A DNA stretch of 64,000 bases, from positions 64,799 through 128,798 of the forward strand of contig DAOUJJ010000006.1 in the NCBI GenBank assembly GCA_034422835.1, in the 5' to 3' direction. The notes under the pieces were generated by a model. The model did not search any database and was not told where the DNA came from. It saw only the letters and a list, made by a program, of their open reading frames with translations. The stretch is from Dehalococcoidia bacterium (GTDB lineage Bacteria; Chloroflexota; Dehalococcoidia; UBA6926). This document shows, piece by piece, positions 41,166 through 64,000 of the stretch (positions are counted from its first letter, which is position 1; each line of letters opens with the position of its first letter). A program made the translations under genes and the position numbers.

Positions 41166-42626
41166 TCAGTCGCGCCGGATACCATCTCGCCGAAGTTTCG
41201 CTAGCAGTTCCTCTTGCGTTCCCGTGCCTTTCGTCGAGTTGCAAGCCTGACACAGTAGTTGCAGGTTGGCGATGTGGTCAGTACCGCCCTTTGCGCGGGG
41301 TACGACGTGGTCGATGGTGAGATTGCGATACGGGAACAACGTTAAGCATCCGCTACAATGTCCCTCTTGCGCTCCGTACAGGTGACGCTTGTTCGCGTCC
41401 ACATTGTACGGCGGGATGCTTCCCAAGTCCGTCCGTCTGGGAACGTCGGTGCGATGATTGACTCTCAGTGAAGTGAATCCCAACTCATTGCCGAGCCGCA
41501 TCTTGACCAGTTCGTGGGCCTTTGGCGATACGTCTATGCCTACCCACTTGCGCTTCTCGCCATCTTTGAAGCTCTCTGCGGCCACGCACGCCGTCGCGCA
41601 ACCACAGAACGGATCGAGTACTACATCGCCGGGATCAGAGGACGCTGCAATGATGCGCTTTAGCAGGGCAAGGGGTTTCTGTGTGGGATACCCCGTGCGC
41701 TCCGAGTGATTGCCCGTTAGCGCCGGAATATCGTCCCACAGATTCGAGACGGGTTGGCCCTTGCTCTCATTGAGATACACCTTGCGCTCAGGGACACCTG
41801 CCCTGCTTTCGGGGATGCCCGCGCCGCTCCGAGCCTGTCTGATTCGTTTGTCTGCATCGAGTTCCATCATTCGCGCCTGGCTGTAACGCCATGTCCGCAC
41901 ATGACCACGAAACTCATATTGATACCCTCCCCCCGACAATCCGCCCGTATGCAGGGGGGCAGTACGGTAAGGCCCGCGCCCATCGTTGTCATTGTGACGA
42001 TATGTCTTCTTTACGTATTCAGGGTCAAGAGGACGGCGCGGGCCATTCCAAATCCCCTTGCCATCTTTCGCATAGAAGAGCAGCGTATCGCAAACACGGC
42101 CAAAGCCTCGGGCGTCGTTGTGAGAGCCGTACCGCCGCCACACAACCTCATTGCGAAAGTTGCCCTGCCCAAAGATAGAGTCCATGACCTGCTTGAGATA
42201 GTGACTGGCCGTGTCGTCGCAATGCAGGTAGATGCTGCCCGTCGTCTTGAGGACGCGCTTCATCTCAAGCAAGCGGACGGCCATCATAATCAGGTACGCC
42301 TTCATACCCTTGCCATGCGACAGACCGGCGGCGTCAATCACGCTGTAGAGCGCAGGCTCCTTCTCCGCAATCTCGCCGTGCCATGCCACGTCCAAATCGT
42401 CGAGCGTCCAAATGTCCTTGAATTCCGCGCCCTCTGCCGGACTGCCGATTGGCGCTCCGTAACTCTGATTGGAGTTGAACGGAGGATCGAGATAGATGAG
42501 GTCTACTGTCTCGCTGTTCATACCCCGCAGAATGTCGAGGTTGTCACCCGTCCAGATAGTACGATTCTTGAAGTTGGGGGCTGCCATCAGCGCGCCCCAT
42601 CCCGGGGGCGCGCGACGATGCGGCAT
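41166..42626 (-). CDS. DNA methyltransferase (N6-adenine/N4-cytosine, beta-class: DPPF ... FxGxG) fused to C-terminal HNH endonuclease domain, 486 aa
   Basis: Motif IV IYLDPPFNS precedes motif I VVLDPFCGCATA (beta-class order). The C-terminus CSGCLTLFPYRNLTIDHVVPRAKGGTDHIANLQLLCQACNSTKG is an HNH motif. GC is low relative to flanks. An alternative start at 42587 (MAAPNF...) is possible. Confidence 0.85.
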   Translation of the reverse strand: MPHRRAPPGWGALMAAPNFKNRTIWTGDNLDILRGMNSETVDLIYLDPPFNSNQSYGAPIGSPAEGAEFKDIWTLDDLDVAWHGEIAEKEPALYSVIDAAGLSHGKGMKAYLIMMAVRLLEMKRVLKTTGSIYLHCDDTASHYLKQVMDSIFGQGNFRNEVVWRRYGSHNDARGFGRVCDTLLFYAKDGKGIWNGPRRPLDPEYVKKTYRHNDNDGRGPYRTAPLHTGGLSGGGYQYEFRGHVRTWRYSQARMMELDADKRIRQARSGAGIPESRAGVPERKVYLNESKGQPVSNLWDDIPALTGNHSERTGYPTQKPLALLKRIIAASSDPGDVVLDPFCGCATACVAAESFKDGEKRKWVGIDVSPKAHELVKMRLGNELGFTSLRVNHRTDVPRRTDLGSIPPYNVDANKRHLYGAQEGHCSGCLTLFPYRNLTIDHVVPRAKGGTDHIANLQLLCQACNSTKGTGTQEELLAKLRRDGIRRD

Positions 42627-42894
42627 CGCATCGTGGAACGGAACCGACTATCCACTGAGTGCCCCCCTGCGGCATCGTGACCGGGACTTCTTGCAACAGG
42701 AGCCAGCAATCAACGTAGATCCGCAAGGGGACAGGGGAATCCCTGCCGCGATGCGATTGACCTACGCTCAAAAAAGAATACGTAGCTCCTGTTGCACGCT
42801 CATTCTGCTAGCCGTCGGGGAGGCTGTCAACGGGAATTAGTGGTCGCTCCGTACGGGTGAGTGGCAACGGTGATGTGGGGCTCAATGAGTTTCG

Positions 42895-55609: not shown

Positions 55610-56092
55610 TTGATGACGAACGATGAAGAACAGCAAAAGACGAACGAAACCGAAGAAACTGAGGCGGTGCCCAAGGAATCGGGGATGCGCGGTCTGTTTG
55701 GCAAAGCCCGCTCTGCGGTCTCTGATGGTCTAGATCGGGCTCAAGAAGTGGCTACTCCGCATGTAGAGCGGGCACGGGAGGCCGCCACACCTCATGTTGA
55801 GAGAGCGCAAGAGGCTGCTGCGCCACACGTTGAGCGCGTCCAGGAGGCCGCTGCGCCGCATGTTGAGCGTGTTCAAGAGGCCACCGCGCCACATGTTGAA
55901 AGAGCCCAAGACATATATGCAAAGACCATCGGAGCGGAGTTCCGTGAAGAATTCACGCGATACGTGAACGCCGCCACGACGACCATCGTTGGCCTCCATC
56001 AGGATCAAGCGGCGACCCAGGAGCGCGTCGATCAGTTGGAGAATGAGGTTGAAACGCTAAAGCAGCGCATTGCCGACCTAGAGAATCGCTAA
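55610..56092 (+). CDS. Hypothetical protein with five tandem 11-aa repeats (ATPHVERAQEA) and C-terminal coiled coil, 160 aa
   Basis: 33-bp tandem repeats ~55735-55900, then QERVDQLENEVETLKQRIADLEN. No known family. Confidence 0.5.
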   Translation: MMTNDEEQQKTNETEETEAVPKESGMRGLFGKARSAVSDGLDRAQEVATPHVERAREAATPHVERAQEAAAPHVERVQEAAAPHVERVQEATAPHVERAQDIYAKTIGAEFREEFTRYVNAATTTIVGLHQDQAATQERVDQLENEVETLKQRIADLENR

Positions 56093-56097
56093 CCAGT

Positions 56098-57327
56098 TTG
56101 ATGGCCACACCTCTGACAATGAACATCGAGACTTCTCTGACAGAACTTGAGGCTCTGGGGGAGCAATTTCCTGAGGCCGAGTCGGACCGACTGTATGATC
56201 TTGCCCGCCAAAGGGCCATCAAGGCAGAGCAATCACTGCTTGAACTGGCTGCGCTCGCAGCAGATCTCTCGATTGATGACATCACCAATCTCGGGTTGGA
56301 GCCGGGTGTTGGTCTGCTCAATGTGCCGAATCTACTAGCCACTTACGAGCCTGATTCTGAGAGGGACACGAAGGAATTCCTTGAGATACTCCGCTCTATG
56401 AACGATACTCCCGACGCACTGGAAATGGCCCCGCTCATATTGGCGGCAGTAGTTCGGAGATATCCAGATGACCCGCTGGGATTTCTTCAAAGAATCAAGG
56501 ACGAGGATTGGGATCCTGATGACATCCCTCTGGATGATGTATTTGGGCAGATTAGGGGACATTATTTTGAGGAACTTGTTGTTAGTCAATTAAAGAGCGG
56601 ACAGGTCTTAGGCGAGTTATGGTTGCAGGCCGGACAAACTGTCGACTTACCGCTTGATCCAACCATACGTGGATGGGATATCCAGATTTTTGATGGGGAC
56701 ACACTCAATGAAAGATTCTCTCTAAAGGCGACCGAGAGCATCAAACGGGTCAAAGAAGCCCTTCAGGAATATCCAAGGTTTCGCGTCGTTGCTACTTCCG
56801 AGATTGACGGCACAGCAGAGGACATTCTGACAACCGACATCTCCAATTCTGAACTGCAGGAGGATATGAAGGGTTGGGTTCGAGAGATTAATGAGGCTGA
56901 GGATGGAGCTTTTTCGATAGACATATCAGACCCGAATCTCAAAGAGAGAATTCTTAGACAAGCTGAAGAGTCTGTTGAGGGCTCACTGGACAATGCCCTA
57001 GATAACGCAGTGGAGATAGCTCTTGACGCCGTCCCGGTAGTATCCGGCGTGATTGTCCTTGTTAGTGAGGGGCGCGCGGTTCTCATGGGAGCGGCGCAGT
57101 TGGAGGACGCCCTCAAACGCGGGGCACAACGGCTCGGGAAAGCAACCGCCTTTACGACGGCAGGAGCAATTATGACAGCCGCGTCCGTGCCGGGAATTGC
57201 CGTCACTCCAGCCCTATTAGCCGCCCGCGTTTGGGCATCACGCCTCGGCAATCGCGCCACCATGGGAACAATCGCCAAAGAGCACGCGGATACGCTTTTG
57301 GCTCTGAGACAACAGCCTCTACAATGA
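56098..57327 (+). CDS. Hypothetical protein, 409 aa (acidic N-terminal two-thirds, hydrophobic/Ala-rich C-terminal third)
   Basis: Long ORF in a ~50% GC islet, 6 nt after the preceding gene. No recognisable domain. Confidence 0.5.
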   Translation: MMATPLTMNIETSLTELEALGEQFPEAESDRLYDLARQRAIKAEQSLLELAALAADLSIDDITNLGLEPGVGLLNVPNLLATYEPDSERDTKEFLEILRSMNDTPDALEMAPLILAAVVRRYPDDPLGFLQRIKDEDWDPDDIPLDDVFGQIRGHYFEELVVSQLKSGQVLGELWLQAGQTVDLPLDPTIRGWDIQIFDGDTLNERFSLKATESIKRVKEALQEYPRFRVVATSEIDGTAEDILTTDISNSELQEDMKGWVREINEAEDGAFSIDISDPNLKERILRQAEESVEGSLDNALDNAVEIALDAVPVVSGVIVLVSEGRAVLMGAAQLEDALKRGAQRLGKATAFTTAGAIMTAASVPGIAVTPALLAARVWASRLGNRATMGTIAKEHADTLLALRQQPLQ

Positions 57328-57559
57328 TGGTTAGTGAAGGTGAGGAAGCTATAGCGACAGACGAGGCATTACTCCGGCGTATTACGTCCCGTCTGGATGT
57401 GTTTGACGGCAAGCCGATCATCCGAGACATGCGTATTTCCGTCGCGTTGATTCTCAGCCTGCTGAGCCAGGTGAATCAATCGAGAACATTCTGGCTGATT
57501 ATCCACGGCTTGAGCCTGCCGATATCCAGGCCTGCATGGCCTACGCCCGCGCGGCCTAG
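57324..57559 (+). pseudogene. DUF433-family gene disrupted by a single-nucleotide frameshift near 57465
   Basis: The N-terminal 48 aa (..RITSRLDVFDGKPIIRDMRISVALILSLLS) are in one frame. The conserved DUF433 C-terminus GESIENILADYPRLEPADIQACMAYARAA* is in the adjacent frame, ending TAG at 57557-57559. Confidence 0.5.
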
Positions 57560-57855
57560 TCGCCGATTGATTCAGGGAGGCGACGGTTGCCGTGCCGGAT
57601 GTGAAGAATCTGCACACCGTCTTCAATCGGACGGTAGAAAATCACGTACGGAGTTGAGGGCACGGCGAATGTCCGAATATCAGGGCCTGACTCCGGACGC
57701 AATACGCCCATACGGGGTTGGTCCGCCAAGCGAAAGCAAAGAGTTTCCAGGCGATCAACGAGCCTGTTAGCGTTGGCTACGCTGTCAGCGGCTATGTAGT
57801 CGGAAATCTGTTGAAAATCACGGAGTGATTGTTCGGAAAAGTTGCAACGGCTCAT
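57556..57855 (-). CDS. ParE/RelE-family type II toxin, 99 aa
   Basis: ParE-like C-terminal motif (YVIFYRPIEDGVQILHIRHGNR). Confidence 0.8.
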   Translation of the reverse strand: MSRCNFSEQSLRDFQQISDYIAADSVANANRLVDRLETLCFRLADQPRMGVLRPESGPDIRTFAVPSTPYVIFYRPIEDGVQILHIRHGNRRLPESIGD

Positions 57856-58118
57856 TCAGCCTGTTGCTCTATTTCTCGAATCCGCTCCCGAACGTCGGCA
57901 AAAACCTCTTCGGCGGTGTGGACCTCGCCCCGGGCAATCTGGTCGATGCTGGTCTGAATCTTCTTACGGATGTCCGCGAGTTCCTCTTCGTAGCCTTCGT
58001 CACCCGGCCGCAGCAGGCCCATCTCGTCGCCGAATCCGTCGTCAGACGCGCCGTTCTGGCCGGACTCAGTAGGAGCCTCGGCGGAGGTTTTCGTCTTGTT
58101 CTTGTCGCTGATTTCCAT
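57852..58118 (-). CDS. Antitoxin of the ParE module (ParD-like), 88 aa
   Basis: Small acidic ORF, 4-nt overlap with the downstream toxin. Typical TA organisation. Confidence 0.55.
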   Translation of the reverse strand: MEISDKNKTKTSAEAPTESGQNGASDDGFGDEMGLLRPGDEGYEEELADIRKKIQTSIDQIARGEVHTAEEVFADVRERIREIEQQAE

Positions 58119-58226
58119 GCGCCCAGACTACTCCCATGGGCAAGCTGTAGCAACAGACGACGCCCTTACACAGAGGCGCGACATGAATATCATGACAATG
58201 GGATTCTGGTAAGGAGGTCTACCATC

Positions 58227-58577
58227 ATGCCCAACATTGAGTTCTATCACTGGTCTACTTGAAACACGTGCAAGACGGCGAAGGCGGTGCTTTCGCAAGC
58301 GGGGCACGAGTTTGCCGAGCGTGATTTCTTCAAGAATCGATTCGCCAGGGATGAGATCGTCGAGCTTCTGAACGGGGAGCCGCCGAGCGCGTTGTTCAAT
58401 CCCCGATCACAGGCTCTCAAGAAGGCGGGCATTGACCCGGCCTCCCTGAATGAGGACCAGACGCTGGATCTGCTTGTGGAGGAGCCCCGCTATTGGCGGC
58501 GTCCAGTGGCCGTCATCGACGGCAAGCTCATCGCGGGGGCGAACACCAAGGTACTGGCGGCGGAGCTGGGACTATAG
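58227..58577 (+). CDS. ArsC/Spx (YffB-like) thioredoxin-fold protein with in-frame TGA at the first CxxC cysteine position (U-N-T-C); candidate selenoprotein or pseudogene, 116 codons
   Basis: Strong RBS AAGGAGG 9 nt upstream of ATG 58227. Translation reads MPNIEFYHWST-[TGA 58260-62]-NTCKTAKAVLSQAGHEF... The family consensus ..IYxxPxCSTCRKAxxWL puts Cys exactly where the TGA is. The downstream frame continues as the ORF-track entry 58287..58577. Total length matches ArsC-family size. Confidence 0.5.
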
Positions 58578-58581
58578 GATG

Positions 58582-58872
58582 TCAGTTCAGCCGAATCGCC
58601 CGGCGTCCCTGCCAAACACGGAGAATGTCGACCCCGTCTTCTATCGGACGATAGAGAATCATGTATGGCGTATTGCGCACGGGTAGAGAGCGAACATCGT
58701 ACCCAAGGTCAGGGCGCTGTATTCCTAACGAGGGAAAGTCTGCCAAGAGCGCGCAAGTACTTTGGATCCGCCTGATTAAAAGCTCAGCACTCTGACGGCT
58801 TCCGCGGGCCACATACTGGCCGATGTCGGTGAGATTGTTCTCGGCCTCATGACTGAAAACGTAGCGGCTCAT
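58582..58872 (-). CDS. ParE/RelE-family type II toxin (second copy), 96 aa
   Basis: YMILYRPIEDGVDILRVWQGRR, paralogous to the toxin at 57556..57855. Confidence 0.8.
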   Translation of the reverse strand: MSRYVFSHEAENNLTDIGQYVARGSRQSAELLIRRIQSTCALLADFPSLGIQRPDLGYDVRSLPVRNTPYMILYRPIEDGVDILRVWQGRRAIRLN

Positions 58873-59174
58873 TCCTTTTGTGAACGAGCCTCCTGCTGAT
58901 GCACTTCTGCCAAGCGTTTCCTCAGTCTGTCAAAAACCACTTCTGCCGGGATCATCTCTCCACGCGCGCGCTGCTCATCCGCATCGCGTACCCGATTCCG
59001 TAATTCCTCAATCTCTTCATTCGTCATGGGTATTTCTTCATACTCGTCCGGGTTCTCGCGCATCTCGAACACGATAAGAGCCGTGCGGACAATCTCGTCA
59101 ACCGACCTGAACTTACCCGTGTCCAGAAACTTCTGGATTAGGGCGCAAGTATCGTCACTGAGTTGAATATCCAT
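58869..59174 (-). CDS. ParD-like antitoxin, 101 aa
   Basis: 4-nt overlap with the toxin; acidic, helical sequence. Confidence 0.55.
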   Translation of the reverse strand: MDIQLSDDTCALIQKFLDTGKFRSVDEIVRTALIVFEMRENPDEYEEIPMTNEEIEELRNRVRDADEQRARGEMIPAEVVFDRLRKRLAEVHQQEARSQKE

Positions 59175-62596: not shown

Positions 62597-64000
62597 TTAG
62601 ACCCTATTCCGTTTCCGATGCCGGCGCCACAGCAGCCACAGCAACAGCAGTAGTAGCACCAGGATCAGCCACAGGTAGATCAGAGTATTCAGCAGCGTCG
62701 GCTCCTGAATAATCTCCGCAGGCTCAGCGGGTGTTGGCGTAGGTGTGGCCGCCGGTGCAGGCGTCGCTGTCGGAGTAGGCGTCGCTGTCGGAGTAGGCGT
62801 CGCTGTCGGCGTGGGTGTCGCTGTCGGTGTAGGCGTCGCTGTCGGTGTAGGCGTCGCTGTCGGCGTAGGCGTCGCTGTCGGTGTGGGCGTCGCTGTCGGT
62901 GTGGGCGTCGCCGTCGGCATAGGTGTCGCTGTCGGTGCAGGCGTCGCCGTGGCCGTAGGCGTCGGCGGGTCCGGATCCGAGTCCGGGGGCGGATCGACCG
63001 TCGGGGGCTCAGGCGCTGGCGGGATCACCGTAGGCCCGGATGAGTCGTCATCGACGATGGTCAGCGTCAGGGTGTTTGTGGCCCACGGGTCGGATATGGT
63101 ATCGGACGCCAATCCCGACACCGTCAGCCTCCGGTGAGGTTCATCCACCTGGTTGTCATTGGGGATTATCACTATGCCGTTGCTGACCGTCCGGCCCGGC
63201 GGGATGGTCAGTGAGTGGGTGGGCATCGTGAAGATGCCGGACGATTGTGGCGGGTCCACCATCACCTGTATCGTCGTCATCGCGACGGACGGCCGGTCCA
63301 GGGTGGCATGTACGGTACTGGATTCCCCCTTCTCTGAGATAGAACTAGGCGCCAGTTCCAGCGTAACCCGGGGTTTTGGCGCGTCGGGCGCCGGGGGTTG
63401 CGGAGCGGCCTGTCCGGTGTTGTATATCACTCCGCCGCTAGTAGCTACCTGGATGCCGGATGCGGTGATGTCCGCGTCCGCGCCCCAGCAGGCGGCCTTC
63501 CCCGCCATGGTGACGGCGCATGTGTGAAAAGCGCTGGCGGCAACGGCGCCAAAACGGACGTAGCGGTATTTTTCCGGTACGGTAACCTGACCGAAATCGG
63601 CAGTGGTGCCTGCTGCGCCACCCCAGCAGGCCACTCGCCCTGCCCTGGTTACGCCGCAGCTGTAATAAAGCCCGACGGCGACATCGGCGAAAGCTGCGCC
63701 GCTCAACTCAGCCGGCAGGGTGGATTGCCCGTATGCGTTCCACCCCCAGCAGCGCACTGTCCCGTCCGCCTGGCCGTTCTGTCCATCCAGGATGCCGCAG
63801 TTATGGTAGGCCCCGGCGTCTATTGTGGAGAAAGTGCCTTCCGGCGCCTCGGCTTGATCGTGATTCTGCCCGTCAGGCGGGGTTCCCCAGCACTTTACCG
63901 TGCCGGCCGCTTGCTCATTCTGCCCATCGAGGATGCCGCAGCTGTGATACCACCCGCCTGTAACGGCAGAAAAGGTGGACTGGGCCAGGTCATTCGGCAA
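62597..64000 (-). CDS. RCC1-repeat (beta-propeller) surface protein with Pro/Thr-rich linker and C-terminal TM anchor; N-terminus beyond window end
   Basis: Repeated [15 protein letters not shown] units (RCC1-like). Linker of (TPTPTA)n, then hydrophobic [19 protein letters not shown] and basic tail. The frame is open to the window edge. Confidence 0.7.
62762..62960. repeat. 18-bp tandem repeat (GGCGTCGCTGTCGGTGTA)n, ~11 copies, encoding the (TPTPTA)n linker
   Basis: Near-perfect tandem units with G/C wobble variation; internal to the RCC1-repeat protein gene. Confidence 0.85.

What the first reader, a model, noticed from the sequence alone, without database searches (positions are those of the whole stretch)
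58227..58577. In-frame TGA at the redox cysteine of an ArsC/Spx-family gene: possible selenocysteine (UxxC) protein
There is an excellent RBS (AAGGAGG, 9 nt) before ATG 58227. Eleven sense codons (MPNIEFYHWST) are followed by TGA and then NTCKTAKAVL..., continuing in-frame for a total of 116 codons, the exact size of ArsC/YffB/Spx proteins. The family consensus places the first Cys of the CxxC motif exactly at the TGA (…PxC-STC-RKA…). Thioredoxin-fold UxxC selenoproteins are an established class. A short GC stem (GCGAA-N9-TTCGC) lies ~17 nt downstream and could be part of a bacterial SECIS. Alternatively this is a nonsense-mutated pseudogene re-initiated at GTG 58287.
Basis: partly seen in the sequence, partly recalled or inferred. 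Interest (0 to 1): 0.7.

Follow-up and report, generated by a model that had tools for sequence, protein, structure and literature searches.

The report
Selenocysteine (UxxC) Spx/ArsC-like redox protein gene
The in-frame TGA is almost certainly a real selenocysteine codon in a small thioredoxin-fold redox protein of a sponge-type Dehalococcoidia bacterium; this kind of selenoprotein was already catalogued in 2008, but public databases annotate this clade as truncated hypothetical proteins.

Summary
ATG 58227 follows an AAGGAGG ribosome-binding site. TGA 58260-58262 is codon 12, and the frame stays open to TAG 58575-58577 (116 codons, Pfam ArsC).

The TGA aligns with the first Cys of the CxxC motif of Spx and with catalytic Cys12 of ArsC. 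All 48 orthologues found, each from a different Dehalococcoidia/SAR202 species (49-92% identity), carry TGA at this codon. So do 5 of 5 more distant homologues checked. In 28 orthologues TGA is also the gene's own stop codon.

An 8-bp hairpin with a G-G/U-N triloop (58278-58296) starts 15 nt after the UGA. It meets every published bacterial SECIS constraint, shows compensatory changes in 5 of 8 pairs, and has frozen synonymous sites. The 11 codons upstream are under purifying selection. The proposed re-initiation GTG lies in the hairpin loop and is GCG in most orthologues, so the pseudogene reading is rejected.

No Sec machinery lies in the window. One orthologue-bearing SAR202 genome (bin16) is reported to have SelA and SelB.

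The family is known: the 2008 ocean-metagenome class "Arsenate reductase 2 (UxxC)" contains a clear homologue. The protein is not an ArsC-type arsenate reductase and lacks Spx hallmarks. Its substrate is unknown.

The parts
58211..58217 (+). Ribosome-binding site AAGGAGG, 9 nt before the ATG
   Evidence: Read directly. GGAG-type motifs sit at the same distance upstream of the start codon in nearly all orthologues.
58227..58577 (+). Full selenoprotein coding sequence: 116 codons (Sec at codon 12) plus the TAG stop at 58575-58577. ArsC/Spx-fold protein.
   Evidence: Translation. Pfam ArsC E 6.5e-11. Best solved relatives are Spx and ArsC. 48 orthologues of the same length and frame.
58227..58259 (+). 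N-terminal 11 codons (MPNIEFYHWST), corresponding to strand beta-1 and the loop leading to the active site. They are translated only if the UGA is decoded.
   Evidence: Tyr-His-Trp is conserved in 94-100% of orthologues. pN/pS is 0.42 with pS 0.64, which indicates purifying selection on the peptide.
58260..58262 (+). UGA read as selenocysteine (Sec12), first residue of the U-N-T-C redox motif
   Evidence: TGA in 48 of 48 orthologues and in 5 of 5 distant homologues. It aligns with Cys10 of Spx, Cys12 of ArsC, and the first Cys of CxxC in full-length homologues.
58269..58271 (+). TGC, Cys15: the partner (resolving) cysteine of the UxxC motif
   Evidence: Cys is invariant in all 48 sequences. 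It aligns with Cys13 of Spx.
58278..58296 (+). Bacterial SECIS-type hairpin. 5' arm 58278-58285 (GCGAAGGC), loop 58286-58288 (GGU), 3' arm 58289-58296 (GCUUUCGC). There are 15 nt from the UGA to the stem and 23 nt to the loop.
   Evidence: RNAalifold consensus. 99.7% of cells are paired in 48 sequences, with 2 covarying pairs. In the wider family, 95.5% are paired and 5 of 8 pairs covary, against 31-65% for slid controls. Hairpin energy is -9.8 kcal/mol, z -3.15. Synonymous sites are frozen.
58165..58193 (+). Sigma-70-like promoter match (CTTACA-17-TATCAT), about 35 nt upstream of the start codon. Tentative.
   Evidence: Consensus scan only: 9 of 12 matches, 1 site found against 0.4 expected. 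Not tested further.

Best explanation
This is an intact, monocistronic selenoprotein gene. Inferred mechanism: during translation, the 8-bp hairpin that begins 15 nt after UGA 58260 presents a G-G-U apical loop 23 nt downstream. Elongation factor SelB carrying Sec-tRNA(Sec) binds that loop, so the ribosome inserts selenocysteine at codon 12 instead of terminating. The product is a 116-residue thioredoxin-fold protein of the ArsC/Spx superfamily. Its closest relatives are in the Spx/MgsR-like 'arsC_related' branch. Sec12 sits where the nucleophilic first Cys of the CxxC motif sits. The most likely chemistry (inferred, about 0.55) is a selenol/thiol oxidoreductase cycle: Sec12 attacks an oxidised substrate (a disulfide or similar) and a Sec12-Cys15 selenenylsulfide forms. 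An unidentified cellular reductant would then reduce that bond. The substrate is unknown. Shown here: the conserved UGA, the conserved covarying hairpin, selection on the upstream peptide, family membership and active-site alignment. Inferred: SelB dependence, actual selenium incorporation and the redox cycle.
For: (1) TGA occupies the same codon in 48 of 48 orthologous loci from different Dehalococcoidia/SAR202/Chloroflexota species at 49-92% identity. It is also there in 5 of 5 more distant homologues whose public gene calls are truncated. (2) In 28 of the 47 intact orthologues the gene's own terminator is TGA. CarB in the window also ends in TGA. TGA is therefore an ordinary stop in these genomes and is recoded only at this site. 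(3) The TGA aligns with Cys10 of Spx and Cys12 of ArsC, and with the first Cys of CxxC in about 37 full-length homologues. (4) The hairpin is 99.7% paired across 48 sequences, with A-U/G-C and C-G/A-U swaps. In the wider family 5 of 8 pairs show compensatory change, and 0 of 500 shuffles reach the observed score. (5) Synonymous sites are frozen only inside the hairpin: Ala GCG 48/48, 45/45 and 41/41, and Ser TCG 48/48. None of 37 other conserved codons that are at least 4-fold degenerate is invariant. pS is 0.16 in the hairpin against 0.56 elsewhere. (6) All four published bacterial SECIS constraints are met (loop 3-9 nt, stem 4-16 bp, G first in the loop followed by G or U, 16-37 nt spacing, MFE at or below -7.5). 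The window has a 3-nt GGU loop, 8 bp, 23 nt and -9.8 kcal/mol (PMC13188914). (7) The upstream 9 codons have pN/pS 0.42. (8) SAR202 bin16 (MPMJ00000000) carries an orthologue (L031) and is reported with SelA=1 and SelB=1. All five SAR202 bins of that study have SelA and SelB. (9) A homologue (34% identity over 106 residues without gaps, E 3e-26) is listed as a selenoprotein in the 2008 ocean-metagenome catalogue.
Against: No selA, selB, selD or tRNA-Sec lies in the 64-kb window: ARAGORN and Rfam found nothing, and a Pfam scan covered 55 of the larger ORFs. The rest of this genome could not be searched. Selenium incorporation has never been shown for any member. Over a 76-nt stretch, the window sequence does not fold better than shuffles (z -0.69); only the 19-nt hairpin itself stands out. 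Most sequences in the covariation counts are related, and the main A-U/G-C swap separates two clades, so it may reflect few events. The biochemical role is inferred by analogy only. Gene neighbourhood is not conserved and gives no clue.
Confidence: 0.88

Rival explanations
1. The gene is a pseudogene with a recent nonsense mutation. Any product is a 96-residue fragment re-initiated at GTG 58287.
For: Gene callers annotate exactly such truncated products: all 24 hits and every cluster member lack the N-terminus. One orthologue (L020) carries a frameshift shortly after the TGA.
Against: The TGA is retained in 48 of 48 species down to 49% identity, and in 5 more distant homologues. The 11 upstream codons, the RBS and the ATG are conserved, with pN/pS 0.42. 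GTG 58287 lies in the hairpin loop and has no RBS, and that codon encodes Ala in 41 of 48 sequences, always as GCG. The public truncated calls start at many different places (61-100 residues). A fragment would lack strand beta-1 and the whole active-site motif.
Confidence: 0.02
2. The UGA is decoded, but not as selenocysteine. It would be read by near-cognate read-through (Trp or Cys) or by a reassigned code, with the hairpin acting only as a read-through stimulator.
For: No Sec machinery could be shown in this genome. Sequence alone cannot identify the inserted residue.
Against: TGA terminates 28 of 47 orthologues and other genes in the window, so the code is standard. The site is the nucleophilic Cys position of a CxxC redox motif, the classic location of Sec. 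The hairpin fits the SelB-type SECIS consensus, including the G-G/U loop start. SelA and SelB are reported in an orthologue-bearing SAR202 genome.
Confidence: 0.05
3. Rival view of function: the protein is an Spx-like redox-sensing regulator that binds RNA polymerase, with a Sec-Cys switch instead of a Cys-Cys switch, rather than an enzyme.
For: Spx structures are the best sequence and fold matches (TM about 0.8 for the modelled Cys homologue). Cys homologues score best against TIGR01617, the Spx/MgsR subfamily, and some pass its cut-off. UxxC, Arg60 and the RRP motif (Arg91, Arg92, Pro93) are conserved.
Against: Gly52, described as essential for binding the RNA polymerase alpha C-terminal domain, is Pro52 here. 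Contact residues Arg47, Thr53, Asp54 and Lys62 are Asn, Pro, Ser and Gln (alignment; residue roles from PMC8501982). The protein ends at residue 116, so it lacks the C-terminal 13-28 residues that contact sigma-A and target Spx to YjbH/ClpXP. Its TIGR01617 score is 47.7 against a cut-off of 75.05. According to the Spx papers retrieved here, Spx is a regulator of Gram-positive bacteria, and its Tyr263 partner on RNA polymerase is conserved in low-GC Gram-positive bacteria.
Confidence: 0.1
4. Rival view of function: the protein is a glutaredoxin-coupled arsenate reductase of the ArsC type with Sec in place of Cys12.
For: It is a member of Pfam ArsC. Sec12 aligns with catalytic Cys12, His8 of the ArsC 'YHNP' stretch is matched by an invariant His8, and Arg94 is matched by Arg92. 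One public source names a cluster member 'arsenate reductase'.
Against: The TIGR00014 score is 28.6 against a cut-off of 106. ArsC Arg60 aligns with Asn58, and Arg107 falls outside the alignable region. Position 15 is Cys (CxxC type) rather than Ser (ArsC sequence verified against 1i9d). No ars genes are adjacent in any locus examined.
Confidence: 0.05

Closest known systems
'Arsenate reductase 2 (UxxC)' selenoprotein class of the Global Ocean Sampling selenoproteome (Zhang & Gladyshev 2008, PMC2398784). Also listed as 'ArsC-like' (2006, PMC1794560) and 'arsenate reductase-like protein, UxxC' (reviews PMC9312934 and PMC13188914).
   Same: Same superfamily, same UxxC motif at the same position, and the same prediction logic (in-frame UGA plus bacterial SECIS). 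One listed read, JCVI_READ_1318105 (YYTWNK-U-STCKK...ERDIF...RSPSVKK...EPRLIRRP), aligns with the window protein without gaps over 106 residues at 34% identity, E 3e-26.
   Different: The published class is heterogeneous. Its commonest subgroup (MVKKVDWYY..GGUTTC..) is only 19% identical to the window protein. The Dehalococcoidia/SAR202 clade itself, with its Tyr-His-Trp-x-x-U signature, is not named in those papers and is annotated nowhere as a selenoprotein. No member has been studied biochemically.
NCBIfam NF041106, 'ArsC family (seleno)protein' (ArsC_rel_Se_1)
   Same: A curated model for an ArsC-like UxxC selenoprotein of the same fold.
   Different: The window protein scores 22.3 bits against a cut-off of 85, and its Cys homologues score 22-41 bits. 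It therefore belongs to a different branch. My inference is that this contributes to annotation pipelines leaving the clade truncated.
Spx/MgsR family (TIGR01617; Bacillus subtilis Spx, PDB 1z3e, 3gfk, 7f75)
   Same: Closest solved relatives by sequence and by fold. The redox pair sits at the same positions (Cys10/Cys13 against Sec12/Cys15). Arg60 and the Arg-Arg-Pro motif are conserved.
   Different: Gly52 is Pro. The alpha-CTD contact residues are not conserved. The C-terminal tail of about 15 residues is missing. The score is below the family cut-off.
Plasmid R773 ArsC, glutaredoxin-coupled arsenate reductase (TIGR00014; PDB 1i9d)
   Same: Same fold. The nucleophile is at position 12, His8 and Arg94 have equivalents, and identity is 27% over 98 residues.
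   Different: Arg60 and Arg107 of the oxyanion-binding triad are not matched. The motif is CxxC-type rather than CxxS. The score is far below the cut-off.
Bacterial SECIS elements (consensus model of Zhang & Gladyshev as summarised in PMC13188914)
   Same: A hairpin immediately downstream of the UGA and inside the coding sequence. It has an 8-bp upper stem, a small loop beginning G-G/U closed by a C-G pair (matching the N1-G-[G|U]-N-N2 pattern), 23-nt spacing and -9.8 kcal/mol.
   Different: The loop is at the minimum size of 3 nt. No lower stem or bulged U of the E. coli fdhF type is conserved. Binding to SelB is untested.

Membership tests
Bacterial selenoprotein gene (Sec-UGA plus SECIS) | In-frame UGA aligned with Cys in homologues, at a redox-active site | tested here: met
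   It aligns with Cys10 of Spx, Cys12 of ArsC, and the first Cys of CxxC in about 37 full-length homologues.
Bacterial selenoprotein gene (Sec-UGA plus SECIS) | The UGA and both flanking coding regions are conserved among orthologues | tested here: met
   TGA in 48 of 48 orthologues and 5 of 5 distant homologues. Upstream pN/pS is 0.42.
Bacterial selenoprotein gene (Sec-UGA plus SECIS) | Hairpin meeting the bacterial SECIS constraints: loop 3-9 nt, stem 4-16 bp, G in the first two loop positions, 16-37 nt from the UGA, MFE at or below -7.5 kcal/mol | tested here: met
   Loop GGU (3 nt), 8 bp, 23 nt, -9.8 kcal/mol. It is conserved and covarying (constraints quoted from PMC13188914).
Bacterial selenoprotein gene (Sec-UGA plus SECIS) | SelA, SelB, SelD and tRNA-Sec present in the same genome | not testable with these tools
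   None is in the 64-kb window, and the rest of the genome is not available. Indirect support: SAR202 bin16, which carries orthologue L031, is reported with SelA and SelB.
Bacterial selenoprotein gene (Sec-UGA plus SECIS) | Selenium actually incorporated at the UGA position | not testable with these tools
   This needs 75Se labelling or mass spectrometry.
ArsC/Spx superfamily (Pfam PF03960) | Score above the Pfam gathering threshold | tested here: met
   42.8 bits against a cut-off of 24, E 6.5e-11, with Cys substituted at the UGA.
GOS 'Arsenate reductase 2 (UxxC)' selenoprotein class | ArsC/Spx-like protein with a U-x-x-C motif, homologous to listed members | tested here: met
   34% identity over 106 residues, E 3e-26, to JCVI_READ_1318105. 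It is only 19% identical to the main subgroup.
NCBIfam NF041106, ArsC family (seleno)protein | Score above the curated cut-off (85 bits) | tested here: not met
   22.3 bits.
Spx/MgsR regulators (TIGR01617) | Score above the curated cut-off (75.05 bits) | tested here: not met
   47.7 bits. Some Cys homologues pass, for example P0105 with 98.7 and P0085 with 79.9.
Spx/MgsR regulators (TIGR01617) | CXXC motif, Gly52 and RPI motif (PMC8501982) | tested here: not met
   UxxC is present and RPI is present as RPV, but Gly52 aligns with Pro52 (alignment; features).
Spx/MgsR regulators (TIGR01617) | C-terminal tail (residues about 104-131) that contacts sigma-A and is recognised by YjbH/ClpXP | tested here: not met
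   The protein ends at residue 116 and the alignment to Spx stops at about residue 107.
Glutaredoxin-coupled arsenate reductase ArsC (TIGR00014) | Score above the cut-off (106.05 bits) | tested here: not met
   28.6 bits.
Glutaredoxin-coupled arsenate reductase ArsC (TIGR00014) | Catalytic Cys12 plus the Arg60/Arg94/Arg107 triad (roles recalled from the R773 ArsC literature; residue numbers checked on 1i9d) | tested here: not met
   Cys12 is matched by Sec12 and Arg94 by Arg92. Arg60 aligns with Asn58, and Arg107 lies outside the alignment. This rests on a pairwise sequence alignment only, with no structural superposition of the window protein.

The most novel reading that the evidence does not exclude
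The protein would be a selenium-based redox switch rather than an enzyme: an Spx-like regulator, or a partner of another protein, whose Sec12-Cys15 selenenylsulfide senses oxidants in sponge-associated Dehalococcoidia. As far as I recall, no selenocysteine-dependent transcription or signalling factor has been described; I did not search for one. A weaker form of this reading is that most of this subfamily is Sec-containing: about 90 of roughly 140 short cluster representatives at 50% identity lack the N-terminal motif, and all five tested carry TGA. That would make it one of the more Sec-dominated thioredoxin-fold families.
Probability: 0.1. Interest if true: 0.7.

Novelty: new member of a known kind. 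Interest (0 to 1): 0.3.

Why it matters
The biology is expected. ArsC/Spx-like UxxC selenoproteins have been listed in bacterial selenoproteome surveys since 2006-2008, and selenocysteine machinery is reported to be enriched in sponge symbionts.

The practical value is in annotation. At least 48 Dehalococcoidia/SAR202 species, and probably most of this subfamily, carry this gene in public databases only as an N-terminally truncated 'hypothetical protein' or 'arsenate reductase'. Those records lack the active site. The existing curated seleno-ArsC model does not capture the clade.

The alignment of 53 UGA-plus-hairpin sites made here could seed a model to fix this. It also gives a compact, well-supported example of a minimal (triloop) bacterial SECIS element.

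The function of the whole family remains unknown. A selenium-dependent redox protein conserved across sponge-associated SAR202 bacteria is a reasonable but not urgent target for biochemistry.

Tried and rejected
(1) Folding 76 nt around the site as a single sequence gave no signal (z -0.69). Only the comparative analysis and the isolated 19-nt hairpin were informative.

(2) tRNA-Sec was sought with ARAGORN in the window and in 51 loci. Only a tRNA-Leu and a tRNA-Trp turned up, in L025. Rfam at gathering thresholds found nothing in the window.

(3) A Pfam scan of 55 of the larger ORFs of the window found no SelA, SelB or SelD domains. It found housekeeping and acyl-CoA metabolism genes.

(4) A screen of all six frames for other in-frame TGA codons with CxxU or UxxC context returned 29 candidates. 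Only this gene looks like a real protein.

(5) Gene neighbourhood as a clue to function: the contexts differ between clades and among distant homologues, so no operon inference is possible. Neighbours include a CoA-transferase with DUF4357 and SulP, CopD with MutL, a radical-SAM enzyme with a flavin reductase, an aldo-keto reductase with a cellulase, CO-dehydrogenase subunits, and an AP endonuclease.

The closest full-length Cys homologue, P0070 (39% identity), was modelled instead (pLDDT 94.9).

(7) Rejected: membership of NF041106, TIGR00014 (ArsC), TIGR01616 (nitrogenase-associated protein, 48 bits against 109) and TIGR01617 (Spx/MgsR). All are below their cut-offs.

(8) Rejected: reassignment of the TGA codon, because TGA terminates 28 of 47 orthologues.
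Full report
OBSERVATION.
- AAGGAGG lies at 58211-58217, followed by a 9-nt spacer and ATG 58227.
- Eleven sense codons (MPNIEFYHWST) precede TGA at 58260-58262.
- NTCKTAKAVL... then continues in frame to TAG 58575-58577, giving 116 codons in all.
- With Cys written at the TGA, the product matches Pfam ArsC (PF03960, 42.8 bits, E 6.5e-11).
- Its best solved relatives are Spx (3l78, 7f75, 1z3e; E about 2e-7) and ArsC proteins.
- In those alignments the TGA falls on Cys10 of the Spx C10-x-x-C13 motif.
- In a pairwise alignment with plasmid R773 ArsC it falls on catalytic Cys12.

IS THE TGA CONSERVED? A word-indexed protein search returned 24 relatives, and every one was N-terminally truncated. 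That is what gene callers produce when they stop at an in-frame TGA.
- Reading upstream of two truncated calls showed the same in-frame TGA preceded by a conserved peptide, at 88% and at 65% identity.
- One scan of a one-genome-per-species collection returned 48 loci. All are from Dehalococcoidia, SAR202 or Chloroflexota metagenome-assembled genomes, at 49-92% protein identity.
- All 48 have TGA at the homologous codon, in the context (Y/L)H(W/Y)-x-x-U-x-T-C, with a GGAG-type ribosome-binding site and an ATG or GTG 9-12 codons upstream.
- One locus (L020) has a frameshift just downstream of the TGA.
- In 28 of the 47 intact orthologues the gene ends with TGA, and CarB in the window also ends with TGA. 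TGA is therefore a normal terminator in these genomes and is read as sense only at this one site.

IS THE UPSTREAM PEPTIDE TRANSLATED? Across all pairs of the 48 sequences, the nine codons before the TGA have pS 0.64 and pN 0.27 (pN/pS 0.42). This is similar to the rest of the gene, which has pN/pS 0.31. Tyr, His and Trp at positions -5 to -3 are 94-100% conserved.
- The proposed re-initiation codon GTG 58287 lies inside the hairpin loop.
- That codon encodes Ala in 41 of 48 sequences, always as GCG.
- Public truncated gene calls start at many different places (61-100 residues).
- The pseudogene and re-initiation reading is therefore rejected.

THE HAIRPIN. RNAalifold on 48 sequences predicts a single helix, which in the window is GCGAAGGC (58278-58285), GGU (58286-58288), GCUUUCGC (58289-58296).
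- Of 384 pair cells, 99.7% form standard pairs. One pair alternates A-U (19 sequences) with G-C (29), another alternates C-G (46) with A-U (2), and one toggles G-U with A-U. Sliding the 3' arm by 1-3 columns drops pairing to 31-70%.
- The exhaustive representative search found many more distant truncated homologues. I fetched five of them (36-48% identity). All five have in-frame TGA in a U-x-x-C motif and a hairpin in the same register, with different sequences. Examples are GCUCGGGC-GUU-GCUCGAGC and GCAAGAC-AGGUG-GUCUUGC.
- On a 25-sequence alignment that includes these five, 5 of 8 pairs show compensatory change and 95.5% of cells pair. No shuffle out of 500 reaches the observed covariation.

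Codon analysis supports an RNA-level constraint.
- Inside the hairpin, Ala is GCG in 48/48, 45/45 and 41/41 sequences, and Ser is TCG in 48/48.
- Leu is CTT or CTC, in step with the AAG or AGG codon opposite it in the stem.
- None of 37 other conserved codons that are at least four-fold degenerate is invariant; their mean codon entropy is 1.40 bits against 0.19 in the hairpin.
- pS is 0.16 in the hairpin and 0.56 elsewhere.

The published bacterial SECIS model requires four things (PMC13188914):
- a 3-9 nt apical loop on a 4-16 bp stem;
- a G in the first two loop positions, usually N1-G-[G|U]-N-N2;
- 16-37 nt between the UGA and the loop;
- MFE at or below -7.5 kcal/mol.

The window element has a 3-nt loop GGU closed by C-G, 8 bp, 23 nt spacing and -9.8 kcal/mol (z -3.15 against shuffles). 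All four constraints are met.

SEC MACHINERY. Nothing in the window encodes it.
- ARAGORN found no tRNA and Rfam found no family.
- A Pfam scan of 55 of the larger ORFs found no SelA, SelB or SelD domains. It found GroES/EL, GyrA, CarAB, PurH, PurF, ArgJ, TsaD and acyl-CoA metabolism genes.
- This is uninformative for a 64-kb sample of a roughly 2-Mb genome.
- Indirect evidence: locus L031 is contig MPMJ01000002.1 of 'SAR202 cluster bacterium bin16'. Slaby et al. 2017 list MPMJ00000000 as bin16, SAR202 clade. Their Table S4 gives bin16 one COG1921 (SelA) and one COG3276 (SelB).
- By my reading of the column order, all five SAR202 bins in that table have SelB=1 and SelA of at least 1. The paper notes that SelA and SelB co-occur in most sponge-symbiont bins.

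WHAT IS THE PROTEIN? No curated subfamily cut-off is reached:
- TIGR01616, nitrogenase-associated protein: 48 bits against 109;
- TIGR01617, Spx/MgsR: 47.7 against 75.05;
- TIGR00014, ArsC: 28.6 against 106.05;
- NF041106, ArsC family (seleno)protein: 22.3 against 85.

Full-length Cys homologues (25-39% identity) carry C-x-x-C with the first Cys in the Sec column. They score best against TIGR01617, and some pass its cut-off. The closest one, P0070, models confidently (pLDDT 94.9), and its best structural matches are Spx structures (TM 0.78-0.83), followed by YffB and ArsC proteins.

Against an Spx-type regulator (alignment; roles from PMC8501982):
- Gly52, essential for contact with the RNA polymerase alpha C-terminal domain, is Pro52;
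- contact residues Arg47, Thr53, Asp54 and Lys62 are not conserved;
- the C-terminal tail that contacts sigma-A and targets Spx to YjbH/ClpXP is absent.

Against an ArsC-type arsenate reductase:
- Arg60 aligns with Asn58;
- Arg107 is not alignable;
- position 15 is Cys rather than Ser;
- no ars genes are nearby.

Gene neighbourhoods differ between clades. I therefore commit to a generic selenol/thiol oxidoreductase cycle through a Sec12-Cys15 selenenylsulfide as the most likely chemistry (about 0.55). The substrate is unknown.

WHAT IS KNOWN?
- ArsC-like selenoproteins were reported in Desulfotalea and Desulfuromonas in 2006 (PMC1794560).
- The 2008 Global Ocean Sampling selenoproteome lists 'Arsenate reductase 1' (UxxS, 77 sequences) and 'Arsenate reductase 2' (UxxC, cd03032, 42 sequences) (PMC2398784).
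- Later reviews list an 'arsenate reductase-like protein, UxxC', now tied to NF041106.
- The 2008 supplement gives the sequences. The UxxC class is mixed. Read JCVI_READ_1318105 aligns with the window protein over 106 residues without gaps (34% identity, E 3e-26). The dominant subgroup is only 19% identical.
- The kind is therefore known, and this branch of it was already sampled.
- What is not in the databases is the Dehalococcoidia/SAR202 clade. Every public record I could list is a truncated 'hypothetical protein' or 'arsenate reductase'.
- Among the best 150 cluster representatives at 50% identity, about 37 are full-length CxxC forms and about 90 lack the N-terminal motif. All five of those I tested turned out to be TGA forms.

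VERDICT.
- Confidence that this is a Sec-decoded gene is about 0.88. The remainder allows for the untested machinery and untested selenium incorporation.
- Novelty: new member of a known kind.
- Interest is modest (0.3). The result is a solid re-annotation and a clean minimal SECIS example, not a new mechanism.

Noticed in passing
window 57556-58118 (-) and 58582-59174 (-): The selenoprotein gene is bracketed by two minus-strand pairs that look like type II toxin-antitoxin modules. The ParE-family toxins are at 57559-57855 (E 1.5e-17) and 58585-58872 (E 5e-16). Each is preceded by a small ORF with no Pfam hit (57855-58118 and 58872-59174), presumably the antitoxin. In the syntenic locus L001 (88% orthologue) the flanking genes are a DUF4357 protein and a SulP transporter instead, so these modules look like local insertions.
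   Followed up: partly
L020:3034-3100: One orthologue (contig CBDCQG010000001.1) has the TGA and the hairpin but loses the frame about 13 codons later (GCAGGGGGCACGAG against GCAGGCGGGGCACGAG in its relatives). This is either a real recent pseudogene or a G-run error in the assembly.
   Followed up: no
representative hits P0067-P0215; loci L052, L053, L055, L056, L057: About 90 of roughly 140 short representatives of this subfamily lack the N-terminal active-site motif. All five checked have an in-frame TGA with UxxC and a hairpin. Sec forms may therefore outnumber Cys forms in this branch, and they are systematically mis-called in public gene sets.
   Followed up: partly
window 41166-42647 (-): A 493-residue ORF combines an N6/N4 DNA methylase domain (E 1.4e-38) with a C-terminal HNH endonuclease domain (E 3e-13). 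It could be a fused restriction-modification-like protein.
   Followed up: no
window 55610-56092 (+) and 56098-57327 (+): A 160-residue ORF has at least five tandem copies of an 11-residue unit (about APHVERAQEAA) and a weak apolipoprotein-like match (35.7 bits, below the cut-off). It is followed by a 409-residue ORF with no Pfam match and a lower GC3 (about 0.5) than the rest of the window. Both lie between the CoA-transferase gene and the toxin-antitoxin pair.
   Followed up: no
window 62597-64000 (-), running off the end of the window: An ORF has RCC1-like repeats, a long Pro/Thr-rich run with many repeats of the unit TPTPTA, and a hydrophobic, Leu-rich C-terminal segment followed by basic residues. 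It looks like a membrane-anchored surface protein.
   Followed up: no
L002 and L003, 10001-12119: In the second clade of orthologues (about 65% identity), mutL starts about 100 nt downstream on the same strand. In the window's clade it does not. No conserved operon partner was found in any clade.
   Followed up: partly
PMC5649159, Table S4: SelA and SelB counts are non-zero in all five SAR202 bins of the Aplysina aerophoba study, and SelA is often present in 2-4 copies. The multiple COG1921 hits were not examined.
   Followed up: no
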